Part shown: piece by piece, positions 16,771 to 60,930 of the stretch
How positions within the stretch are numbered: the stretch's first letter is position 1
Layout: every line of letters begins with the position of its first letter
Source of the DNA: Nitrospinota bacterium
Lineage (GTDB): Bacteria; Nitrospinota; Nitrospinia; Nitrospinales; VA-1
Assembly: GCA_027619975.1 (NCBI GenBank)
Contig: JAQCGX010000009.1
Span: 5,813-69,812, forward strand
DNA length: 64,000 nt
Direction: 5' to 3'
Program-made: the position numbers and the translations under genes
The notes under the pieces: generated by a model
What the model was told of the DNA's origin: nothing
What the model saw: the letters and a program-made list of their open reading frames with translations, nothing else
The model's database searches: none

Positions 16771-17451
16771 TTAAACTCCCTTCAAGCGAAGTTGCGTGTC
16801 TTCTGTAGTCCCGTCGTTTAACCGCTTTTGAAACGTTTCCCGCCAGCTATCCGACAACGCCGCAACCGATAGAATTTCACCAATCCCGTCCCAGTCCTTT
16901 TTGTTCTTATGCATGAGGTCATTGGCGGTTTCAACAGAAATCCCTTTGGGGTCAGCTTGCAAAGGAACAATTTTCTCACCGGCCTCCACCCACCCCGGTT
17001 TGAGGACGCGCAGGTAGTAGCCGCTGAATCCCGTGGTTTGCACCCGGCAGGCCATTCCCTGAAAATCAAATACCTTATTGAGTTTGTGGCAGGGTTGCCG
17101 GGGTTGGGTGCATTGCACCTCCGCTTCGCCAACGCGGAAAACGTCGCCAATATGAACCTCGGTTTCCGTCAACCCGGTCACACTTAAATTTTCACCAAAA
17201 GCCCCGAAACTCAATGCCTGTTTCAACTCCTTTTCCCAGAAAGGATAATGATCAATGCAATAAACGCACACCGCCTTATCGCCGCCCCCATGAAAGCGGT
17301 GATCGGCAACGCCATCGCCCTGAAAACCAAGATTATCGAGAAAAATTTTTCCCTGAACGGGTTTTTTCAGGATTCCAGAGAATATTTTTTTGTCCCCAGA
17401 AACAAGCACATTTCCAGGAACTGCAATATTTATCGATTGAATTGTCGCCAT
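16771..17451 (-). CDS. MOSC domain protein (YiiM-like)
   Basis: The likely start is MATIQSINIA at 17451. Motifs are HGGGDKAVCVY, GAFGENLSVTGL, and CTQPRQPCHKLN with the conserved MOSC Cys. Confidence 0.8.
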   Translation of the reverse strand: MATIQSINIAVPGNVLVSGDKKIFSGILKKPVQGKIFLDNLGFQGDGVADHRFHGGGDKAVCVYCIDHYPFWEKELKQALSFGAFGENLSVTGLTETEVHIGDVFRVGEAEVQCTQPRQPCHKLNKVFDFQGMACRVQTTGFSGYYLRVLKPGWVEAGEKIVPLQADPKGISVETANDLMHKNKKDWDGIGEILSVAALSDSWRETFQKRLNDGTTEDTQLRLKGV

Positions 17452-21716: not shown

Positions 21717-21919
21717 GCGACCGCGGGTCTAACGGATTCAACCCTTAGTCGAAGCGGGCGAAAGAAGAAAAAATTCCTCCCCCTGATCCGCTCTCAAAAA
21801 CAGATCAAGATCATATACAAGATTTGGATCAAAAACCCAATGATTGGGGAGGAAAAAATGGGTAGAAAGTCCGTCGCACATTAATATTAGGTCCAGCTGC
21901 ACGCTGGTGGACCCGAGGG

Positions 21920-22030
21920 GGAAAACGTCGCCAATATGAATCTCGGTTTCTGTCAATCCGGTCACACTTAAATTTTCACCAAAAGCACCCGAAACTCAAT
22001 GCCTGTTTCAACTCCTTTTCCCAGAAAGGA
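21920..22030 (-). pseudogene. duplicated internal fragment of the MOSC gene
   Basis: The 111 bp are about 96% identical (3 substitutions, 1 indel) to 17136..17245 in the same orientation. The fragment encodes FWEKELKQALSFG.F..(frame break)..TGLTETE.HIGDVF, and similarity ends abruptly on both sides. Confidence 0.85.
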
Positions 22031-49998: not shown

Positions 49999-50106
49999 GG
50001 GTAATTTACCAGAAACCAGGAATAATCACGCCCTCCCTGTTCTCCTAGTTATTAAGATAGTCTTCTTTTTAAGTTTCAATATTCAATCTGCAATAAGGTG
50101 AAATTT

Positions 50107-50745
50107 ATGACTAAGTTTTTTTCAAACTCCCGAATCATCCTGCTCGTCTTGTTTTTTTCCACCCTCATGGGCGCAGAAGCCTGGGCTTTTGGTCAATTGA
50201 CGCTGATCGCCAAAACGGAGGACGGCAAAGTCAAAATATCGCTCATTGAAGAAGAGGGCCGTTATTTTGGTGACATCCGGGAAGGCCTCACCGTCCTGAC
50301 ACCCCTACAATTCATCCAGCAACCTAAATATCTAAAAATTGGTATTGGGGAGCAGGACTATACTATTGAGCGCTGGGAACTGGGGAAGTACATCAGTTAT
50401 GGCGGCGTCATTCAGGACGAAAGGGGAATTTCCGCGCAAGCGGAATTTGACGGACCGAAATTGACGATTTCGGGAACCATCGAAGATGAAAGAAATTCCC
50501 TCGTCGATTTTGAAGTCATCGCCAATGATAAAAAGGGTTCTTTGGAATTGCATTGGGGAGCTAAATACCTGTTCCTGAATAAAATCGCCGATAAAAAACC
50601 GGGTGGTTGCCACGGCGGACTGATCAAGGAAGATCTGGCAAAACTGGGCGGCTTCTGGTGTTCCAGTTCAGGAAGCCTGGAAGACGTTTTTTTCACCGAT
50701 CCGGATCAGATTCTTGCGTGGATCGTGGCGTTATTTGTTAAGTAA
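50107..50745 (+). CDS. hypothetical secreted protein
   Basis: It has a signal peptide (ILLVLFFSTLMGAEAWA). I recognise no family. The ORF track start at 50098 is a GTG; the ATG at 50107 is chosen here. Confidence 0.45.
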   Translation: MTKFFSNSRIILLVLFFSTLMGAEAWAFGQLTLIAKTEDGKVKISLIEEEGRYFGDIREGLTVLTPLQFIQQPKYLKIGIGEQDYTIERWELGKYISYGGVIQDERGISAQAEFDGPKLTISGTIEDERNSLVDFEVIANDKKGSLELHWGAKYLFLNKIADKKPGGCHGGLIKEDLAKLGGFWCSSSGSLEDVFFTDPDQILAWIVALFVK

Positions 50746-50796
50746 AGATTAAAATAAAGATCTCTGGCAGTCCGGCTTTTAGGAACTACTCCTTTC

Positions 50797-51543
50797 TTAT
50801 TCCTCATCATAAAAAACCTTGACCAGACAAAGCCCATAAGGTCTGGCTGTGGGTCCGGCATTTTTCCGGTCGCGGGATTCCAGAATGGTTTTGATCTGTT
50901 CGGGTTTGATCTTATTTCGGCCTACTTGCACCAGGGTTCCGACAATATTACGGACCATGTATTTTAGAAATCCGTTGCCATCGCAATGGATAATTATAAA
51001 ATCCCCATCCTGCTCAATATCGATTGAATTGATTTCGCGCACCGGGTTCCTGGCTTCACAGTTGGAGGCCCTAAACGCTGTAAAATCGTGTTTGCCTTCC
51101 AGATAATTTTTCGCCTGGCGCATGGCTTCGATATTTAGGTGATATTGAATGAACAAGCATCGGTTGTGTTGCAGGGCAGAGGGATATTGCCGGTTTAATA
51201 TCGTGTAGCGGTATATTTTTCGTTTGGCTGATCTTTGTGCGTGAAAGGTGTCTGGAACCTCATCCACCTGTTTGATGACGATATCGTGGGGCAACAGACT
51301 ATTAAAGGCCATCAGGAATTGCTGCGCTGTCATCTTTGAAATGGTCTCGAAATGAGCCGCCTGTGCTTCCGCATGAACTCCGGCATCGGTTCTGCCTGAT
51401 CCGATGACCGGCCGTTCTTCGCCGGTTATCTTTTTTAAGCAATTCTGGAGAACTTCCTGAATGGTGATGCCGTTGAGCTGTACCTGCCACCCGTGGTAAC
51501 GGGTCCCGTCATATTCGATGATGAGTTTAAATTTCCTGGTCAA
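50797..51543 (-). CDS. truA: tRNA pseudouridine(38-40) synthase
   Basis: 248 aa with YDGTRYHGWQVQ, GSGRTDAGVHA (catalytic Asp), and GNGFLKYMVRNIVG. Confidence 0.93.
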   Translation of the reverse strand: MTRKFKLIIEYDGTRYHGWQVQLNGITIQEVLQNCLKKITGEERPVIGSGRTDAGVHAEAQAAHFETISKMTAQQFLMAFNSLLPHDIVIKQVDEVPDTFHAQRSAKRKIYRYTILNRQYPSALQHNRCLFIQYHLNIEAMRQAKNYLEGKHDFTAFRASNCEARNPVREINSIDIEQDGDFIIIHCDGNGFLKYMVRNIVGTLVQVGRNKIKPEQIKTILESRDRKNAGPTARPYGLCLVKVFYDEE

Positions 51544-51572
51544 AAATTATTCCTTCCCGGAAAATATGCAAT

Positions 51573-51607
51573 AAAAAACGCGTTACATGCTTCGTAACGC
51601 GTTTTTT
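51573..51607 (-). terminator. rho-independent (bidirectional-looking) terminator of micro-gene copy 1
   Basis: aacgcgttac-atgcttc-gtaacgcgtt is a 10-bp perfect stem flanked by A6 and T6 runs. It ends about 30 nt upstream of the truA start. Confidence 0.75.
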
Positions 51608-51674
51608 CTCTTTTTAAGCCCCGAGGCCAATCCCCACTCGGGTATGTCCAGGATTATAGATGGACTTTTTAATT

Positions 51675-51716
51675 TTATTTTTTAACTCCCTTGAAAGGTG
51701 GACTTGCTTCTACCAT
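51675..51716 (-). CDS. 13-codon micro-ORF MVEASPPFKGVKK
   Basis: The ATG is 5 nt after AGGAGG. The first 9 codons are shared with copy 2, including a synonymous Pro change. Confidence 0.4.
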   Translation of the reverse strand: MVEASPPFKGVKK

Positions 51717-51920
51717 AAGCACCTCCTGCTTCAAGTTTATCCCAAACCCTCAACTCTAATATAGTTCCATTCTGAAATTTGGCAACTTATTTTTCTTACA
51801 AGTTGAAGAAACTTAAAAATACAAATAACTTATTTAAATTCAATATTTTATGTAAATTTCACCTGGAAAAAATGGGTTTAAATTTCCACATCAAAAACAA
51901 TTCTTTCAGAGGGAAATCCT

Positions 51921-52157
51921 AAAAAAAAACGCGCTACCTGCCCGGCAACGCGTTTTTTCTCTTTTTAAGCCCCGAGGCCAATTCCCACTCGGGTATGTCC
52001 AGGATTATAGATGGACCTTTTAATTTTATTTTTTAACTTCTATTTTAATTTTTTACAACCTTGAATGGTGGACTTGCTTCTTCCATAAGCACCTCCTGGT
52101 TCAAGTTAGCCTTAAACTCTTCACTAACCAATATAGTTCTGTCTACCGATTTCGCAA
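51921..52157 (-). repeat. micro-gene module copy 2 (promoter to terminator)
   Basis: It contains -35 TTGCGA (52157-52152), a 16-nt spacer, -10 TATATT (52135-52130) and an AGGAGG SD. These are followed by a 13-codon ORF, a near-identical 3' segment (51955-52035 vs 51601-51680), and a weaker hairpin with A9/T6 runs. Confidence 0.8.
52045..52086 (-). CDS. 13-codon micro-ORF MEEASPPFKVVKN
   Basis: The SD and ATG context match copy 1. An insertion of about 19 nt after codon 9 changes the C-terminus. Confidence 0.4.
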   Translation of the reverse strand: MEEASPPFKVVKN

Positions 52158-52217
52158 CCTTTTTTTATGAAAATAAAATAAAATAATAATCCATATAACA
52201 TAAATATAATCAATATC

Positions 52218-54353
52218 TTAACCCTTAATCATCCGGGAGAATGGCTTTGTGCCCACCAGCATCAAATCGTCTTCGGCACGGGTGATGGCTACGTACAGCA
52301 TATTTCGGCTTTCGGGCCGGGTTTGGGGATAATTTTCCTCGGTAGGCTCGACAATACAGACCGCATCAAACTCCAGGCCCTTCACCTGATGAACATTGGT
52401 GACTATGATTCCGGGCTCAAAGGAAAACTGGTCCCGGTGGCCCAGGCGAAGCCCTTCGGGAATCATTTCATCCAGATCTTCTTTTAACTCCATCGCCTGC
52501 TTGGGAGAACGGCAAATGAGAGCTATCAGCTTGTTGGGTTTACCGGCTTGAACCGTCTCTACCCAATGAGTGATTGTTTCCAGCAGTTCGTCCTTATCTT
52601 CTACGTTTTGAAAGAGCGGTTTCGTCCCCTGCCGACCCTCCACAACTTTATTATCGCCTGCCACTCGGCTGGCGAGCGTCATGATCTGGGCTGTGCACCG
52701 GAAGGAGATTTCCAAACGGATCAAATCGCTTTCCTCAAGGTTCAGACTGTCGATGATTTTTTCCCAGCCGATAAATCGTCTGGCAAATAATATTTTCTGA
52801 CTGACATCGCCAACGATTGTCAAATTGCGCCGGTCCTTGACCGCTTGCACCATGATGGCGAATTCAACGGGGCCAAAATCCTGAGCTTCATCAATAACCA
52901 AATGATCCAGCAAAGTGATCTCATCGTTTTTGCCAGGCAATCCACCGTTTTTAAGCTGGATATTATACAAAATCAAGGACATGTCGAAATAATCGAGGTT
53001 TTTATTTTTGCGATTTTTTTCCGTTCGGTCCCGCAAATATTCCAGGTGGTAATCAAGCTTTTGATCTGGCTTGAGATGAGAGCGCAAATGATCTGAATCG
53101 GCCAACAGATCGTAAATATCGTTTATATAGTCTTCCATTTTGCCCATCAGGGAGCGCAAGGAAATAAGAAGATCATTTTTATCCTTATCGGGTATTTTCG
53201 CGCCCTTGACCTCATGTATAAAGTTTCTGATCCGGGGGAGAACGGCGTCATCCCGCCCCTGGTCCCAATGTTTAATGAGGCTGGTCCAACGGGAAGAATT
53301 CTCTCTAATCCAGTGATCGGTTGTCTGCGTTTGTTTTTTCACCTGCCCGGCAATGGCCGACAGAATTTCTTCTGAGAATTTTATTTTTTCAACAAAATCA
53401 GGGAGCTGGTGGAATTTAAATAATGCCTTCCCCTTGGTTAACCTGCGAATGATCGAAAGCGCCCAACCGTTGAAGGTCGAAGTTTCCACATTATGGATTC
53501 CCATGGAAGGAAGCGTTGAATCCACGTATATCTGCAAAGACTTATTCATCACCAGGACGCGGGTTTTTTCGGGACTGGCAAAAGAATTTTCCTCATGCAG
53601 TAACCAGGCGAGGCGATGCAGGGCGACCGTTGTTTTTCCAGACCCCGCAGAACCTTGAATAATCACCGGACGATCGGGATCGGTGGTGATGAGTTCAAAC
53701 TGATCTTTGGTGATTAGAGACAGTATGTTGGGAAGCTTTTTATCCGAAGAACCGACTTTCCGTGACCGGTGCGCGGCAATTTCCGCATCGACATCCAGTT
53801 TTAGCCACCCGTTATCACTCCAGTGATACACGGCTTCCGGAGTATCTATCTGAACCAGTTTTCCTCCTTCGATCTGATAAGAACGTCGCAACTTGATTTT
53901 ACCGCTACGCTCCCTTTCATTGATTTCCTCGAAAAATTCTTCTCCCTGCTTGTAATTGAAATAGAGAGCGGAGATCGGACCGTTACGCCAATCGACTATC
54001 CCCGATTCAATGTTGCTCTTTTTTCCGATCAGAAAAGCCACTTCCTTACCGTCATCCTCGGAGGTCACCACCCGGCCAAAATAGGGCTCGCGGATCAACT
54101 CTAACAACGTTTGATCGCTTTCCTTGCGAATATCGGAAATCCTATGGGCCACGGCCTCATCTGAAACCAACGGCTGTCTTTCCTCATGATTCCATTCGCC
54201 GACCATTTGTTGCGTCAACTCCCGCGCCAGAATATTGGCTGATATTTTAGAAGCCTGCACCTGAGGGAGTTCCTTGCACAATGATTCTATAGTCCTGCTA
54301 AAAAGAGTTTCCTCTTCTTCAATAAGCTTTTTTTCGTCTTCCGATAGTTCCAT
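52218..54353 (-). CDS. UvrD/Rep-superfamily helicase, HelD/helicase IV-like
   Basis: Walker A is GSAGSGKTTVALHRLAWLL. It also has LVIDEAQDF and VHQVKGLEFDAV, and an N-terminal helical region before the helicase core. The start is either MELSEDEKK at 54353 (AGGAA upstream) or the ATG at 54410. Confidence 0.8.
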   Translation of the reverse strand: MELSEDEKKLIEEEETLFSRTIESLCKELPQVQASKISANILARELTQQMVGEWNHEERQPLVSDEAVAHRISDIRKESDQTLLELIREPYFGRVVTSEDDGKEVAFLIGKKSNIESGIVDWRNGPISALYFNYKQGEEFFEEINERERSGKIKLRRSYQIEGGKLVQIDTPEAVYHWSDNGWLKLDVDAEIAAHRSRKVGSSDKKLPNILSLITKDQFELITTDPDRPVIIQGSAGSGKTTVALHRLAWLLHEENSFASPEKTRVLVMNKSLQIYVDSTLPSMGIHNVETSTFNGWALSIIRRLTKGKALFKFHQLPDFVEKIKFSEEILSAIAGQVKKQTQTTDHWIRENSSRWTSLIKHWDQGRDDAVLPRIRNFIHEVKGAKIPDKDKNDLLISLRSLMGKMEDYINDIYDLLADSDHLRSHLKPDQKLDYHLEYLRDRTEKNRKNKNLDYFDMSLILYNIQLKNGGLPGKNDEITLLDHLVIDEAQDFGPVEFAIMVQAVKDRRNLTIVGDVSQKILFARRFIGWEKIIDSLNLEESDLIRLEISFRCTAQIMTLASRVAGDNKVVEGRQGTKPLFQNVEDKDELLETITHWVETVQAGKPNKLIALICRSPKQAMELKEDLDEMIPEGLRLGHRDQFSFEPGIIVTNVHQVKGLEFDAVCIVEPTEENYPQTRPESRNMLYVAITRAEDDLMLVGTKPFSRMIKG

Positions 54354-54588
54354 TCTAATTCCTGTCACGTGATAGGCAAAAATCCTGTAAATTCCAAGAC
54401 CTGAACCCATTAATGTAGATTAGATACTCCCGTGCGGTCAATGGAAAAGTCGAAATTTTAAGGGTTAGTTTTATCGCCCCCCTATCCTCGAAACTTGCCC
54501 TTTCAAACTCTGCCAGAGTTCTATATGATAAAAGGGAATTTTTGTATGTATTTTAAGCCCAAACACTTATCGCTTTTCAGGAGCAATC

Positions 54589-58394: not shown

Positions 58395-58693
58395 TATCGG
58401 CCGCCACCCTACTTATTTTTTACTAAAAAAATTCATTTGAATATTAACGATTTATATCATGAAATCGGCATTATCGGAACCACGAATTTGCGTGCCACAA
58501 ATTTTTGGGAATTTATTTCCCAACCTCAGGATGATAGAGAGAAATATCTTCCTACCTTGCAATTAAGCGAAATGCATTAACAAAAAAACCTGGTTACCGA
58601 CACCGATTACAAAAATGAAACTTATTAGTTTTGTGAAATTCATCTCTAAGACCGTTAAAGTATCGTATGACTAAAAACCTTGGAGTCACATAA

Positions 58694-58833
58694 GGACACC
58701 TCTAAAAATTAGTTTTTAAGTGGCACGGGCTTTCCAGCCCGTGCGAACAGGCTGGAAAGCCTGTCCCACTATAACAAAGACACTTCTTTGAATTGACGAT
58801 ATAAGAACATTTAGTCAATTTTTAGAGGTGCCC
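58694..58833. mobile_element. MITE-like element, copy A (140 bp)
   Basis: Terminal inverted repeats are GGACACCTCTAAAAATT and AATTTTTAGAGGTGCCC. It is flanked by ATAA on both sides (58690-58693, 58834-58837). The internal double palindrome is cacgggc-TTTCCA-gcccgtg / acaggc-TGGAAA-gcctgt. Confidence 0.75.
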
Positions 58834-59206
58834 ATAATTTCTGGATAAATCCTTACAGCAACCTTCACCCCTTGAAACAGCAATAAATATCCGTATAGCA
58901 AATATTACCTTTACCTTCCCTATAATATCAGCTAAACTGTAACAAATAAAGACTTCCTTACAACCCAGAAAAGTTATTATGGACGAACGGGTAAAAACCC
59001 CTTAGAATGGCAAAAATGAGGACTTTTCCTCGCCGATTACCTGTCTTCTATGACACTATTTCAGTGTTGAATTAAGAAGAAATGATTGCTTGTTCGCTGG
59101 TATTCAGCATATACCAGACCCGAACTTTGGAAACCTTCCCTAACCCACTAAATTTAATTCATTATCTATTGACCCACTTTCAATTAACCCTATTTAGGAG
59201 AAAAAG

Positions 59207-60514
59207 ATGTCCACAGCCACTGCTGCTGAAAAATTTAAGGTAAAAGACCTCTCACTGGCTGAATGGGGCAGGCAGGAGATGATTCTTGCTGAAAAGGAAA
59301 TGCCCGGATTGATGGCCCTGCGCGATAAACACGGAAAATCCAAACCTCTTAAAGGAGCAAGGATTGCGGGCTCTCTGCACATGACCATTCAAACCGCCGT
59401 TCTGATAGAAACCCTGATCGAACTTGGTGCCCAGGTCCGATGGGCATCCTGCAATATTTTTTCTACGCAGGACCACGCTGCAGCGGCAATTGCTAAAGCA
59501 GGTATTCCTGTATTCGCCTGGAAAGGTGAAACCGAAGAAGAGTATTGGTGGTGTACCGGGCAAACCCTGTTGTTTGATAATGGCCAGGGCCCTAACATGA
59601 TCCTAGACGATGGCGGCGATTTGACCTGCTACGTGCATAAAAATCACCCGGAATTTCTCGCCGATCTAAAAGGCGTTACCGAGGAAACCACAACCGGCGT
59701 ACACAACCTATACAAGATGTTGAAGGACGGGTCTCTAAAGCTTCCGGCAATGAACGTCAATGACTCCGTCACCAAATCCAAATTCGACAACCTTTACGGT
59801 TGCCGCGAATCTCTGGCGGATGGCATCAAACGGGCCACAGACATCATGATTGCGGGAAAAGTAGTGGTGATCGCAGGTTATGGGGATGTGGGTAAGGGTT
59901 GCGCCAGGGCCATGCGCGATCTCGGAGCCCGCGTTCTGGTGACGGAAATTGACCCCATTTGCGCCCTGCAAGCCGCCATGGAAGGATACGAAGTGACCAC
60001 CATGGAAGAAGGCGTGAAGGAGGGAAATATTTTCGTCACCACCACTGGCTGTAAAGATATCATCACCATTGGACATATGGAAGCGATGAAAGACGATGCT
60101 ATTGTCTGCAACATCGGTCATTTCGACATTGAGATTCAGGTAGAACAACTGAACAAATTCCCCGGAATCAAAAAAATCGAAATCAAACCGCAGGTGGACA
60201 AATATACCTTTCCGAAGGGGAACAGCATCATCCTGTTGGCCGAAGGAAGACTTGTCAACCTCGGTTGCGCTACCGGACACCCTTCCTTCGTCATGTCCAA
60301 CTCCTTCACCAACCAGGTGCTGGCGCAGATGGAGTTGTACAATAATAAATACGAAGTTGGCGTTTACACCCTTCCAAAAATACTGGACGAGGAAGTCGCC
60401 CGGTTGCATTTGGACAAGCTTGGCGTCAAGTTAACCACCATGACAAAGGAGCAGTCGGAATATTTGAATCTCCCGCTTAAAGGCCCGTACAAACCGGATA
60501 CGTACCGGTACTAG
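59207..60514 (+). CDS. ahcY: adenosylhomocysteinase
   Basis: 435 aa with [23 protein letters not shown], the NAD site [10 protein letters not shown], and [10 protein letters not shown]. Confidence 0.96.
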
Positions 60515-60612: not shown

Positions 60613-60686
60613 ATACCTGTTTTCAATCTCCACTTTTTTCAGGTAAAACGGAAATAGCTCTTCCGTATCAAATGCCATTAATATAA

Positions 60687-60862
60687 GGGTACCTCTAAAA
60701 ATTAGTTTTTAAAAGGGAATTGAACATTGTAAAGAGTTTCTTAAATCAGTGGCACGGGCTTTCCAGCCCGTGCGAACAGGCTGGAAAGCCTGTCCCACTA
60801 TAACAAAGACACTTCTTTGAATTGACAATATAAGAACATTTAGTCAATTTTTAGAGGTGCCC
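60687..60862. mobile_element. MITE-like element, copy B (176 bp)
   Basis: It has the same orientation and sequence as copy A, plus a 36-nt internal insertion. The TIRs are GGGTACCTCTAAAAATT and AATTTTTAGAGGTGCCC. ATAA flanks it on both sides (60683-60686, 60863-60866). Confidence 0.75.
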
Positions 60863-60930
60863 ATAAGAATTACTTTTTTTTAATCACTGACAGGAAACAA
60901 CATGGGTCGTCACCTTTGCCAAAGAATATT

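What the first reader, a model, noticed from the sequence alone, without database searches (positions are those of the whole stretch)
51573..52157. Tandem pair of self-contained micro-genes (promoter, strong SD, 13-codon ORF M-x-EASPPFK, conserved hairpins, terminator) between a HelD-like helicase and truA
Two direct copies lie in minus-strand orientation, co-directional with both flanking genes. Each copy has the same parts in the same order. First comes a promoter: -35 TTGCCA or TTGCGA, exactly 16 nt, then -10 TATATT. Next is a leader of about 45 nt, then AGGAGG 5 nt before an ATG. The ORF has 13 codons: MVEASPPFKGVKK at 51716-51675 and MEEASPPFKVVKN at 52086-52045. A nearly identical 3' segment of about 80 nt follows, with two small hairpins (gtcca-N10-tggac and cccgag-N11-ctcggg). 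Each copy ends in a terminator hairpin with A/T runs. The promoter spacer and leader have diverged between copies. The promoter hexamers, SD, first nine codons and 3' segment are retained, and one of the two coding substitutions is a synonymous Pro (cct/cca). That pattern suggests selection on both a peptide and an RNA structure. Copy 2 has an insertion of about 19 nt right after codon 9, so only M-x-EASPPFK is shared. PPF is a stalling-prone, EF-P-sensitive type of motif, and the copy 1 terminator ends about 30 nt before the truA start. Plausible roles are a translation-sensing leader/attenuator, a dual-function sRNA, or a tiny peptide (possibly a modified-peptide precursor). I do not recognise it as any known RNA or peptide family.
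Basis: partly seen in the sequence, partly recalled or inferred. Interest (0 to 1): 0.8.

Follow-up and report, generated by a model that had tools for sequence, protein, structure and literature searches.

The report
Conserved small RNA upstream of truA
The two "micro-genes" are tandem copies of an undescribed, structured small RNA of about 185 nt that sits directly in front of the tRNA-modification gene truA throughout the nitrite-oxidising Nitrospinaceae; the 13-codon reading frame is not conserved, so the RNA, not a peptide, is what selection keeps.

Summary
Both minus-strand modules have the stated promoter, AGGAGG-N5-ATG, 13-codon ORF, two hairpins and terminator.

I recovered 33 distinct full-length homologues from 36 Nitrospinaceae loci. 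Wherever truA is within reach (31 loci), the element lies immediately 5' of it, and in 29 of these the terminator ends 13-30 nt before the start codon. Single copy is the rule. The tandem pair occurs only in the window's close clade and arose from an old duplication that also copied the truA start.

ATG occurs in 5 of 33 sequences; 22 have ATA, 4 have ATC and 2 have no start. Only Ser-Pro-Pro is shared, there is no codon periodicity, and ORF ends vary.

The conserved features are:
- the promoter;
- an invariant AGGAGGU, stronger than the SD of any long ORF in the window;
- an invariant AGUCCNCC that can pair with it;
- two hairpins and a terminator with compensatory changes (10 pairs; 0 of 500 shuffles).

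Rfam has no match, and no antiterminator alternative exists.

Best reading: a new family of small RNA genes whose transcription unit also feeds truA by terminator read-through. Whether the RNA acts in trans or in cis is unresolved.

The parts
51758..51785 (-). Copy 1 promoter-like site: -35 TTGCCA, 16 nt, -10 TATATT
   Evidence: The same TTGCNN-16/17-TATATT lies upstream of truA in every locus that holds truA and upstream of the copy-2 elements.
51574..51757 (-). Copy 1 RNA (truA-proximal), about 184 nt from just after the -10 to the end of the terminator
   Evidence: Covariance-model hit of 181.7 bits, E = 8e-47. Orthologue identity is 0.86, against 0.58-0.67 for neutral proxies.
51741..51752 (-). 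Conserved 5' block TGAGGGTTTGGG (family consensus GRGGGWUUUGAGAC)
   Evidence: Alignments A2 and A4. It can pair with AGUCC (95% of cells paired, no covariation).
51721..51727 (-). Invariant Shine-Dalgarno-like AGGAGGT (copy 1)
   Evidence: Invariant in all 33 homologues. None of 43 long ORFs in the window has AGGAGG near a start, and only 2 have GGAGG.
51675..51716 (-). Copy 1 13-codon ORF MVEASPPFKGVKK plus stop. It is clade-specific, not a family feature.
   Evidence: ATG occurs only in copy 1 of the four closest genomes and in window copy 2.
51697..51704 (-). Invariant AGTCCACC (anti-SD-like; it faces GGAGG in the weak hairpin P1)
   Evidence: four G-C pairs that never vary. P1 folds at only -5 to -9.5 kcal/mol.
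51646..51665 (-). Hairpin HP2, GTCCA-TCTATAATCC-TGGAC, with invariant loop core AUAA
   Evidence: Five pairs show compensatory changes across the family.
51620..51642 (-). Hairpin HP3, CCCGAG-N11-CTCGGG
   Evidence: Three pairs show compensatory changes.
51573..51607 (-). Copy 1 intrinsic terminator (A-tract, 14-bp stem, T-tract), ending 29 nt before the truA start
   Evidence: The upper stem covaries (G-C/A-U, U-A/C-G).
50797..51543 (-). truA (tRNA pseudouridine 38-40 synthase), TTG start. No promoter-like site lies between the terminator and the start.
51872..51907 (-). Decayed copy of the truA 5' end, downstream of the copy 2 terminator
   Evidence: family D6 (81% identity). The remnant is also visible in the spacer of L013, L014 and L015.
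52130..52157 (-). Copy 2 promoter-like site: -35 TTGCGA, 16 nt, -10 TATATT
   Evidence: Orthologue identity is 0.84.
51925..52129 (-). Copy 2 RNA (helicase-proximal), about 205 nt including a 19-nt insertion at 52041-52059
   Evidence: Covariance-model hit of 163.6 bits. Orthologue identity is 0.76 overall, 0.91 in the SD..CCACC core, 0.85 in the 3' module and 0.62 in the 5' part.
52045..52086 (-). Copy 2 13-codon ORF MEEASPPFKVVKN plus stop. The orthologous copy 2 in L013, L014, L015 and L020 starts with ATC.
51921..51958 (-). Copy 2 intrinsic terminator
52218..54410 (-). Upstream neighbour: UvrD-family, HelD-like helicase (730 aa)
   Evidence: best NCBIfam hit HelD_BACSU, 222 bits, below the curated cutoff. 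It is the upstream neighbour in every locus except L047.

Best explanation
The two modules are paralogous genes of an undescribed, structured small RNA of about 185 nt that is conserved across Nitrospinaceae. The selected product is the RNA, not the 13-residue peptide.

Each gene has a sigma-70-type promoter (TTGCGA-16-TATATT) with an A/T-rich upstream flank, and each ends in a strong intrinsic terminator.

truA starts 13-30 nt after that terminator and has no room for a promoter of its own. truA mRNA must therefore arise by read-through, giving an sRNA-truA operon in which the short terminated RNA is the main transcript.

Shown:
- The RNA is conserved.
- HP2, HP3 and the terminator carry compensatory base-pair changes.
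- AGGAGGU and AGUCCNCC are invariant.
- The ORF is not conserved.
- The element is strictly linked to truA.
- Both tandem copies, each with its own promoter and terminator, have been maintained since before the four sister genomes diverged.

Inferred:
- The RNA works through an SD/anti-SD-type module. The pyrimidine strand AGUCCACC(U) would act as an anti-SD-like seed that pairs with purine-rich ribosome-binding sites (other mRNAs, and possibly the truA site in read-through transcripts).
- The perfectly SD-like AAGGAGGU would be its weak intramolecular mask and/or a 30S-binding site.
- This would explain why both strands are frozen in sequence rather than covarying.
- In the window's clade the strong SD plus a newly acquired ATG probably also causes incidental translation of the micro-ORF.
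For: Distribution:
- I found 33 distinct full-length homologues in 36 loci. Seven came from truA homologues of 73-88% identity, three from homologues of 59-65%, and 25 from a metagenome pattern scan.
- All lie directly 5' of truA. There is no second locus in the 64-kb window or in 330 kb of flanks.

Structure:
- 91% of cells pair, and 10 pairs show double-sided changes.
- No shuffle out of 500 reached these values, and slid controls gave 32-55% pairing.

ORF not conserved:
- Start triplets are ATA 22, ATG 5, ATC 4 and none 2.
- There is no codon periodicity.

Other points:
- No antiterminator: with the 3' arm removed, the 5' arm stays unpaired in the consensus fold.
- No promoter lies between the terminator and truA. 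The gap is 13-30 nt in 29 of 31 loci.
- Both tandem copies are more conserved than neutral proxies. Identities are el1 0.86, el2 0.76 and promoters 0.83-0.84, against spacer 0.61, upstream flank 0.58 and truA third positions 0.67.
- Copy 2 has its own compensatory change in HP3 (CCCGGG/CCCGGG in L015).
- AGGAGGU is stronger than the SD of any of 43 long ORFs in the window.
- P1 is weak and never varies.
- No Rfam family matches.
Against: - There are no expression data, so the promoter and terminator are consensus matches only.
- A free-standing sRNA gene ending only 13-30 nt before the next start codon is unusual. The usual reading of that anatomy is a cis-acting leader.
- When the upstream synteny broke (L047), the element stayed with truA.
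- No target can be named because whole genomes were not available. A duplex screen on the window was uninformative.
- The 5' domain fold is unresolved. P1 (SD:CCACC) and an alternative pairing (5' block GGRUU:AGUCC) are mutually exclusive, and neither has covariation support.
- Twenty-five of the loci were found with a pattern that required AGGAGGT, AGTCCNCC and AAAACGCGTT. The invariance of those motifs is unbiased only in the 11 loci reached through truA. Within that set, L045 and L046 change the terminator stem and L047 has AAUCC.
- Gene conversion between the copies could account for part of the conservation of copy 2.
Confidence: 0.5

Rival explanations
1. The element is a purely cis-acting leader or attenuator of truA. 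Its structured RNA would sense a factor such as a protein, 30S subunits or TruA itself, or would modify RNA polymerase as put or EAR elements do. That would set how much transcription passes the terminator or how well truA is translated. On this view the terminated 185-nt RNA is a by-product.
For: - The order promoter, structured RNA, intrinsic terminator, then 13-30 nt to the start codon holds in 29 of 31 loci.
- No truA promoter is present.
- Linkage to truA survived loss of the helicase neighbour in L047.
- In many D-clade loci the truA ribosome-binding region (GGGUGGA-AUG) is complementary to the invariant UCCACC.
Against: - No conserved terminator/antiterminator alternative exists.
- Several D-clade loci lack the complementarity: L025, L028 and L033 have GACCAAA or GAACAAA.
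- In the two-copy clade the upstream copy keeps its own promoter, core, hairpins and terminator, even though a second full promoter lies between it and truA. That is hard to explain for a cis-only device.
- No ligand rationale exists for a pseudouridine synthase.
Confidence: 0.3
2. The micro-ORF is the functional unit. It would be a translated leader peptide that starts at AUG or a near-cognate AUA/AUC and stalls at Pro-Pro, sensing EF-P, tRNA-Pro or TruA-dependent decoding. Alternatively, it would be the peptide half of a dual-function sRNA.
For: - The SD is invariant and lies 4-6 nt before an AUN triplet in 31 of 33 sequences.
- Indels respect the frame: +3 nt inside the ORF in L044, and +1 or -1 nt only in the SD-start spacer in L028/L033 and L019.
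- S-P-P is conserved.
- TruA-modified tRNAs affecting leader-peptide attenuation has precedent in hisT and the his operon (established knowledge).
- In the window clade, a perfect SD plus ATG makes translation physically likely.
Against: - ATG is present in only 5 of 33 sequences. L045 and L046 have no start at the aligned place.
- AUA and AUC are very poor initiators (established knowledge).
- There is no codon periodicity, and residues other than SPP are not conserved.
- ORF lengths range from 11 to 20 codons, with an in-frame stop in L023.
- The variable third positions of the Pro codons coincide with the unpaired positions of the RNA helix.
- The stops lie roughly 55-65 nt before the terminator stem, and no alternative pairing exists.
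Confidence: 0.1
3. The element functions at the DNA level. It would be a strong promoter plus palindromic protein-binding sites (AACGCGTT arms, TATAAT-like box) regulating truA or helD, with no functional RNA.
For: - The invariant AACGCGTT is itself a palindrome.
- The HP2 loop reads TATAAT in the window.
- The promoter is strongly conserved.
Against: - HP2 variants such as CACATAAGTG destroy the -10 reading yet are exact compensatory RNA pairs.
- The terminator stem covaries in L045 and L046 (ACGCGCUG...CAGCGCGU).
- HP3 covaries as well.
- Compensatory changes are a signature of RNA, not of DNA binding sites.
Confidence: 0.04
4. Copy 2 is a decaying duplicate kept similar only by gene conversion, and the pair has no significance beyond the single ancestral element.
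For: - Gene conversion is evident in the window: paralogue identity of 0.95-0.97 exceeds orthologue identity.
- The 5' part of copy 2 evolves near neutrally (0.62).
- Copy 2 carries lineage-specific insertions.
Against: - In L013, L014 and L015 the copy 2 orthologues keep copy-specific characters (ATC, CCA) and so evolve independently of copy 1.
- All of them still retain the promoter, SD, AGUCC, HP2, HP3 and terminator.
- Copy 2 of L015 has its own compensatory pair.
Confidence: 0.06

Closest known systems
Tandem paralogous trans-acting sRNA pairs (OmrA/OmrB, PrrF1/PrrF2, AbcR1/AbcR2) - from established knowledge
   Same: Two head-to-tail copies, each with its own promoter and intrinsic terminator. 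The core and 3' part are conserved, while the promoter spacer and 5' end have diverged. An A-rich stretch plus a U-tail resembles Hfq-binding modules.
   Different: There is no sequence or structure relation. Targets and chaperone are unknown. The element is single-copy in most of the family and is always glued to truA, which has no promoter of its own.
sRNA-mRNA operons and attenuator-derived sRNAs (ssrS-ygfA; rnTrpL/peTrpL of Sinorhizobium; SreA/SreB of Listeria) - from established knowledge
   Same: A short, abundant RNA and a downstream protein gene share one promoter, and the terminated leader can be a functional RNA. rnTrpL even carries a 14-codon ORF.
   Different: Those leaders have a known sensor (a riboswitch or a Trp-codon attenuator) with alternative structures. 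Here none is detectable and the ORF is not conserved.
Leader-peptide attenuators with Pro codons (mgtP/mgtL of Salmonella) and the hisT(truA)-sensitive his attenuator - from established knowledge
   Same: The order is promoter, SD, short ORF with consecutive Pro codons, terminator, then gene, and the downstream gene concerns tRNA function.
   Different: The start codon is non-canonical or absent, there is no antiterminator, and the ORF ends far upstream of the terminator.
C-rich-seed sRNAs that mask Shine-Dalgarno sequences (RsaE/RoxS, LhrC, RNAIII loops) and STAB-SD 5' stabilisers (cryIIIA) - from established knowledge
   Same: There is an invariant pyrimidine motif complementary to ribosome-binding sites. 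There is also an invariant perfect SD that is not tied to a conserved ORF.
   Different: Function is untested. Here the SD-like and anti-SD-like motifs sit in one molecule and can pair with each other. There is no homology to any of these RNAs.

Membership tests
Any Rfam 15 family (4227 models) | Score at or above the family's gathering threshold | tested here: not met
   No hit in the whole window or in 12 homologous loci. With permissive E-values, only chance matches on the terminator appeared (rliE, GibS, FsrA; 17-22 bits against cutoffs of 80-115).
Leader-peptide transcription attenuator | Conserved translatable ORF with a canonical start behind an SD | tested here: not met
   ATG in 5 of 33 sequences, ATA 22, ATC 4, none 2.
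Leader-peptide transcription attenuator | Mutually exclusive terminator and antiterminator pairings coupled to ribosome position | tested here: not met
   The consensus fold without the 3' arm leaves the 5' arm unpaired. The ORF stops lie roughly 55-65 nt upstream of the terminator stem.
Leader-peptide transcription attenuator | Intrinsic terminator directly upstream of the regulated gene, with no intervening promoter | tested here: met
   The gap is 13-30 nt in 29 of 31 loci. No promoter-like site was found.
Dual-function sRNA (SgrS/SgrT, RNAIII/hld, SR1/SR1P type) | ORF under coding constraint inside the sRNA | tested here: not met
   There is no third-position excess outside SPP. Only S-P-P is shared.
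Trans-acting sRNA gene | Own promoter and intrinsic terminator; conserved structure | tested here: met
   Consensus promoter and terminator are present in all loci, with 10 covarying pairs. This is sequence-level evidence only; transcription was not observed.
Trans-acting sRNA gene | Base-pairing targets elsewhere; chaperone dependence | not testable with these tools
   No whole genome of the clade was available. The duplex screen on the window was uninformative.
Riboswitch / T-box type leader | Aptamer whose ligand state is transmitted to an expression platform by alternative pairing | tested here: not met
   No alternative pairing with the terminator was found, and there is no Rfam match. 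The 5' domain fold is unresolved.
RiPP or modified-peptide precursor | Conserved precursor peptide next to maturation enzymes | tested here: not met
   The peptide is not conserved. The neighbours are a HelD-like helicase, TruA, a glycosyltransferase, LeuB and Asd.
tRNA / tmRNA-like element | Cloverleaf or tRNA-like domain | tested here: not met
   ARAGORN finds nothing in 50000-53000.

The most novel reading that the evidence does not exclude
The element could be a new kind of cis-regulatory RNA for a tRNA-modification enzyme. It would be an ORF-independent ribosome sensor in which an invariant super-SD (AAGGAGGU, with a deliberately poor AUA/AUC start) captures 30S subunits. That capture would free or mask the anti-SD-like AGUCCACC, or would render RNA polymerase terminator-resistant. 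truA read-through and translation would then track the state of the translation apparatus, with no classical antiterminator involved.
Probability: 0.12. Interest if true: 0.75.

Novelty: new member of a known kind. Interest (0 to 1): 0.45.

Why it matters
- Nitrospinaceae are the main nitrite oxidisers of the ocean, and to my knowledge none of their regulatory RNAs has been described; three literature searches found nothing on one.
- This is a family-wide, apparently highly expressed RNA with frozen ribosome-related motifs, and it is physically fused to the only route by which truA can be transcribed.
- If it acts in trans, it is a candidate global translational regulator in these organisms.
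- If it acts in cis, it would be, as far as I know, the first leader shown to control a pseudouridine synthase, and it would do so without a recognisable antiterminator.
- The case is also a caution for micro-ORF calls. A perfect SD plus ATG plus 13 codons, duplicated and "conserved", turns out to be a lineage-specific accident on an RNA gene.

Tried and rejected
1. A genome-contig scan with GTCCA-N8-12-TGGAC-N3-CCCGAG-N9-13-CTCGGG gave only 10 chance hits, in coding regions of high-GC genomes.
2. I tested the HP2 loop TATAAT as a -10 box for truA and rejected it. There is no -35, and the D-clade variants (CACAUAAGUG) are compensatory RNA pairs.
3. I looked for a truA promoter overlapping the terminator (TTGAGC-17-CATTTT in the D clade). 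It is weak, not conserved in the other clades, and not called by the scan.
4. I looked for an antiterminator and found none.
5. I considered a CsrA-sponge reading based on multiple GGA motifs. Apart from the SD, the motifs are not conserved in position.
6. I rejected a 6S-like rod, a tRNA-like fold and mimicry of the anticodon stem-loop substrate of TruA. Covariation supports local hairpins, loop sizes are 4-14 nt rather than 7, and ARAGORN and Rfam were negative.
7. An all-against-all column covariation screen for extra helices or pseudoknots gave only isolated pairs that split by clade.
8. A 5' three-way-junction model (5' block:AGUCC closing two variable hairpins) is compatible with the data (95% paired) but has no covariation support, and constrained folds are heterogeneous.
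9. An RNAduplex screen of the RNA against 329 candidate start regions in the window gave implausible long-loop duplexes and no signal at truA or the helicase. I discarded it.
10. Three literature searches found nothing on a Nitrospina sRNA or a truA leader.
11. I tested the guess that a group II intron lies after the terminator in L038. Rfam found nothing, but only about 100 nt are held.
Full report
**1. The observation**

Each of two direct copies carries:
- a promoter-like site, TTGCCA or TTGCGA, 16 nt, then TATATT. These are the only two minus-strand promoter-like sites in 51300-52400;
- AGGAGG 5 nt before an ATG;
- a 13-codon ORF;
- hairpins GTCCA-N10-TGGAC and CCCGAG-N11-CTCGGG;
- a hairpin flanked by an A-tract and a T-tract.

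The pairwise alignment and the repeat finder confirm a diverged promoter spacer and leader, a conserved SD..codon-9 core, a 19-nt insertion in copy 2 and a nearly identical 3' segment.

One feature was missed. The repeat continues past the terminator into the start of truA: 51872-51907 is 81% identical to 51521-51556 (family D6). The pair is therefore a tandem duplication of the element plus the truA 5' end.

The flanking genes are as stated. The upstream gene is a 730-aa UvrD-family helicase whose best NCBIfam match is HelD (below the curated cutoff). The downstream gene is TruA.

**2. Where it comes from and who else has it**

The exact TruA protein occurs on metagenome contigs. Its homologues that carry source names are labelled Nitrospinaceae, Nitrospinales or Nitrospina (lineage).

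I fetched truA loci of relatives at 88-73% TruA identity (L013-L019) and at 65-59% (L045-L047). I also scanned the metagenome collection with AGGAGGT-N12-20-AGTCCNCC-N85-115-AAAACGCGTT, which gave 25 loci (L020-L044).

A covariance model built from 30 sequences finds 33 distinct full-length copies plus one truncated copy. It finds nothing else in the 64-kb window or in about 330 kb of flanks. The only reverse-strand hits are the palindromic terminator.

Every copy lies between the HelD-like helicase and truA, on the same strand as both, with one exception. In L047 the upstream neighbour is different and the element has stayed with truA.

The terminator ends 13-30 nt before the truA start codon in 29 of 31 loci. 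The two exceptions carry insertions of 59 and 178 nt.

Most genomes have one copy in a 265-325-nt gap. Only the window and its closest relatives (L013, L014, L015, and copy 2 on the truncated L020) have two copies in a gap of about 660 nt. The truA-start remnant is present in the inter-copy spacer of all four complete loci, so the duplication predates their divergence.

**3. The ORF is not the conserved feature**

At the aligned position, the start triplet varies as follows:
- ATG only in copy 1 of the four two-copy genomes and in the window's copy 2;
- ATC in the other copy 2 sequences and in L016;
- ATA in 22 sequences;
- no start at all in L045 and L046, which read ...GGUAUUGAGGAG... and ...GGUUUAGAGGAG....

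If read from that triplet, the peptides share only S-P-P. Lengths run from 11 to 20 residues, and L023 has an earlier in-frame stop.

Column entropy by codon position is flat:
- codons 8 onward: 0.41/0.44/0.51 in the Nitrospina-like clade and 1.08/1.03/1.03 in the others;
- codons 2-4 in the non-Nitrospina-like sequences: 0.61/1.37/1.26.

Only the S-P-P codons vary at third positions alone. Those positions are exactly the central A.A mismatch and the first base outside the GGAGG:CCNCC pairing, so an RNA model predicts the same pattern.

Two observations keep a small door open for ribosome involvement:
- The triplet is AU[A/C/G] at 4-6 nt from the SD in 31 of 33 sequences.
- The few indels respect a frame: +3 nt inside the ORF in L044, and single-nucleotide changes only in the SD-start spacer.

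Within the window clade, copy 1 peptides differ by about 7 non-synonymous and 4 synonymous changes. That shows no clear purifying selection on the peptide.

**4. What is conserved**

- Promoter: TTGCNN-16/17-TATATT lies upstream of truA in every locus that holds truA and upstream of the copy-2 elements.
- 5' block: GRGGGWUUUGAGAC.
- AGGAGGU is invariant. In the window, none of 43 ORFs of at least 200 aa has AGGAGG near a candidate start and only 2 have GGAGG, so this is an unusually strong SD-like sequence.
- AGUCCNCC, 14-19 nt downstream of AGGAGGU.
- HP2, with loop core AUAA.
- HP3.
- An A-rich tract, AAAAGAGAAAAA.
- The terminator.

On the 33-sequence alignment:
- 91.4% of cells pair.
- Ten pairs carry changes on both sides: five in HP2, three in HP3 and two in the terminator.
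- No shuffle out of 500 reached these values.
- Sliding the 3' partners drops pairing to 32-55% (RNAalifold consensus).

The SD:CCNCC helix (P1) never varies, so it has no covariation support. It folds at only -5 to -9.5 kcal/mol, not better than shuffles of its inner segment (mean z = -0.59).

An alternative pairing of the 5' block (GGRUU) with AGUCC is 95% paired but also lacks covariation, and it is mutually exclusive with P1. Constrained folds are heterogeneous, so the 5' domain remains unresolved.

A caveat on ascertainment applies. The metagenome pattern required AGGAGGT, AGTCCNCC and AAAACGCGTT. Their invariance is therefore unbiased only in the 11 loci reached through TruA. Within that set, L045 and L046 do change the terminator stem, by compensatory C-G pairs, and L047 reads AAUCC.

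**5. Selection versus conversion in the tandem pair**

Among the four orthologous two-copy loci, identities are:

| Segment | Identity |
|---|---|
| Copy 1 element | 0.86 |
| Copy 2 element | 0.76 |
| Promoters | 0.83-0.84 |
| Inter-copy spacer | 0.61 |
| Upstream flank | 0.58 |
| truA third codon positions | 0.67 |

Copy 2 keeps its core (0.91) and 3' module (0.85) but lets its 5' part drift (0.62). It has copy-specific characters shared among orthologues (ATC, CCA) and its own compensatory pair in HP3 (L015). Copy 2 is therefore maintained as an RNA.

In the window genome itself, the paralogues are 95-97% identical in the core and 3' module. It probably also carried the ATG into copy 2.

**6. 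How it most likely works**

*Shown.* This is a conserved, structured RNA bounded by a promoter-like and a terminator-like signal. truA lies immediately behind it with no space for a promoter and no consensus promoter. No terminator/antiterminator alternative exists: in the consensus fold with the 3' arm removed, the 5' arm stays single-stranded.

*Inferred.* truA is transcribed only by read-through, so the element is physically its leader and the short terminated RNA is the main product.

Two readings compete.

For a discrete, functional sRNA (my preference, about 0.5):
- Both tandem copies retain a promoter, core and terminator even though a full promoter separates copy 2 from truA.
- There is no antiterminator.
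- The promoter is strong, with an A/T-rich upstream flank.
- The terminator is strong.
- The A-rich tract plus U-tail resembles chaperone-binding modules.

For a cis-only leader (about 0.3):
- The anatomy is that of a leader, the 13-30-nt spacing is constant, and the element stayed with truA in L047.

My mechanistic inference is an SD/anti-SD module:
- The frozen pyrimidine motif AGUCCACC(U) would be a seed for purine-rich ribosome-binding sites.
- The frozen, perfectly complementary-type AAGGAGGU would be its weak internal mask and/or a 30S-binding site.
- If the seed is fixed by its partners, the mask cannot covary, which fits the data.
- In several Nitrospina-like loci the truA ribosome-binding region (GGGUGGA-AUG) is complementary to UCCACC, but others lack this. 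A cis target is therefore possible but not general.

The peptide hypothesis keeps about 0.1. DNA-level explanations are contradicted by the compensatory changes.

**7. Comparison with known systems and novelty**

No Rfam 15 family matches the window or 12 homologous loci. ARAGORN finds nothing.

- The element resembles tandem sRNA pairs (OmrA/B, PrrF1/2) in gene anatomy.
- It resembles sRNA-mRNA operons and attenuator-derived sRNAs (ssrS-ygfA, rnTrpL) in its relation to truA.
- It resembles C-rich-seed sRNAs or STAB-SD elements in its motifs.
- It fails the defining tests of leader-peptide attenuators, dual-function sRNAs, riboswitches and RiPP precursors (see the membership table).

I file it as a new member of a known kind: an undescribed, lineage-specific bacterial small RNA or leader family. 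It is not a new kind of system.

Its interest is moderate, for three reasons. It is a family-wide RNA in ecologically important and little-studied bacteria. It carries unusual frozen ribosome-type motifs. And it has an unusual, obligatory coupling to a tRNA-modification gene.

The most novel reading not excluded is an ORF-independent ribosome-sensing leader for truA (probability about 0.12).

Noticed in passing
window 58690-58840 and 60683-60866: Two copies (93-99% identical) of a palindromic element of about 150 nt. Its ends are the inverted repeat CACCTCTAAAAATT...AATTTTTAGAGGTG and it has an internal GC-rich hairpin. The copies flank a 435-aa ORF (59207-60514). It looks like a MITE or a cassette boundary.
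   Followed up: partly
window 17129-17245 and 21913-22030: Direct repeats 87-91% identical and about 4.8 kb apart (families D4 and D5). They are probably the ends of paralogous genes. I did not examine them.
   Followed up: no
L038:101-1 (minus strand): In this locus the sequence 9 nt after the element's terminator U-tract switches to GUGCGCCCGGCAGGGCGCACCC... instead of the truA leader seen in the otherwise identical L029. The GUGCG start resembles a group II intron 5' end; from memory, some bacterial intron classes insert after terminators. Rfam gives no match, but only about 100 nt are held.
   Followed up: partly
L031:413-590 and L042:1-165: A GC-rich insertion of about 170 nt, with several hairpins, lies between the terminator and the truA start. 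It is the only large exception to the 13-30-nt spacing. Its nature is unknown.
   Followed up: no
L018, L026, L031 and L042, 5' domain (A4 columns 15-31): This sub-clade has an extra 15-17-nt segment that forms its own hairpin (for example CCUGAAAUUUCAGG in L018), inserted between the 5' block and the SD-like motif. That part of the RNA therefore tolerates an added helix.
   Followed up: partly
L002 (Logan contig) and L020: Independent assemblies break inside the repeated element. L002 starts 82 nt upstream of truA, and L020 ends in the copy 2 terminator. The tandem repeat evidently fragments short-read assemblies.
   Followed up: partly
window 51541-51543 and homologous loci: truA starts with TTG (GTG in L017) in the window-type clades and with ATG in the Nitrospina-like clade. 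In several Nitrospina-like loci there is no recognisable SD at normal spacing: GGGUGGA abuts the ATG, or the sequence is GACCAAA.
   Followed up: partly
window 51925-52129 compared with 51574-51757: There is a signature of recent gene conversion between the two copies in this genome only. Core and 3' module identity is 0.95-0.97, higher than between orthologues.
   Followed up: yes
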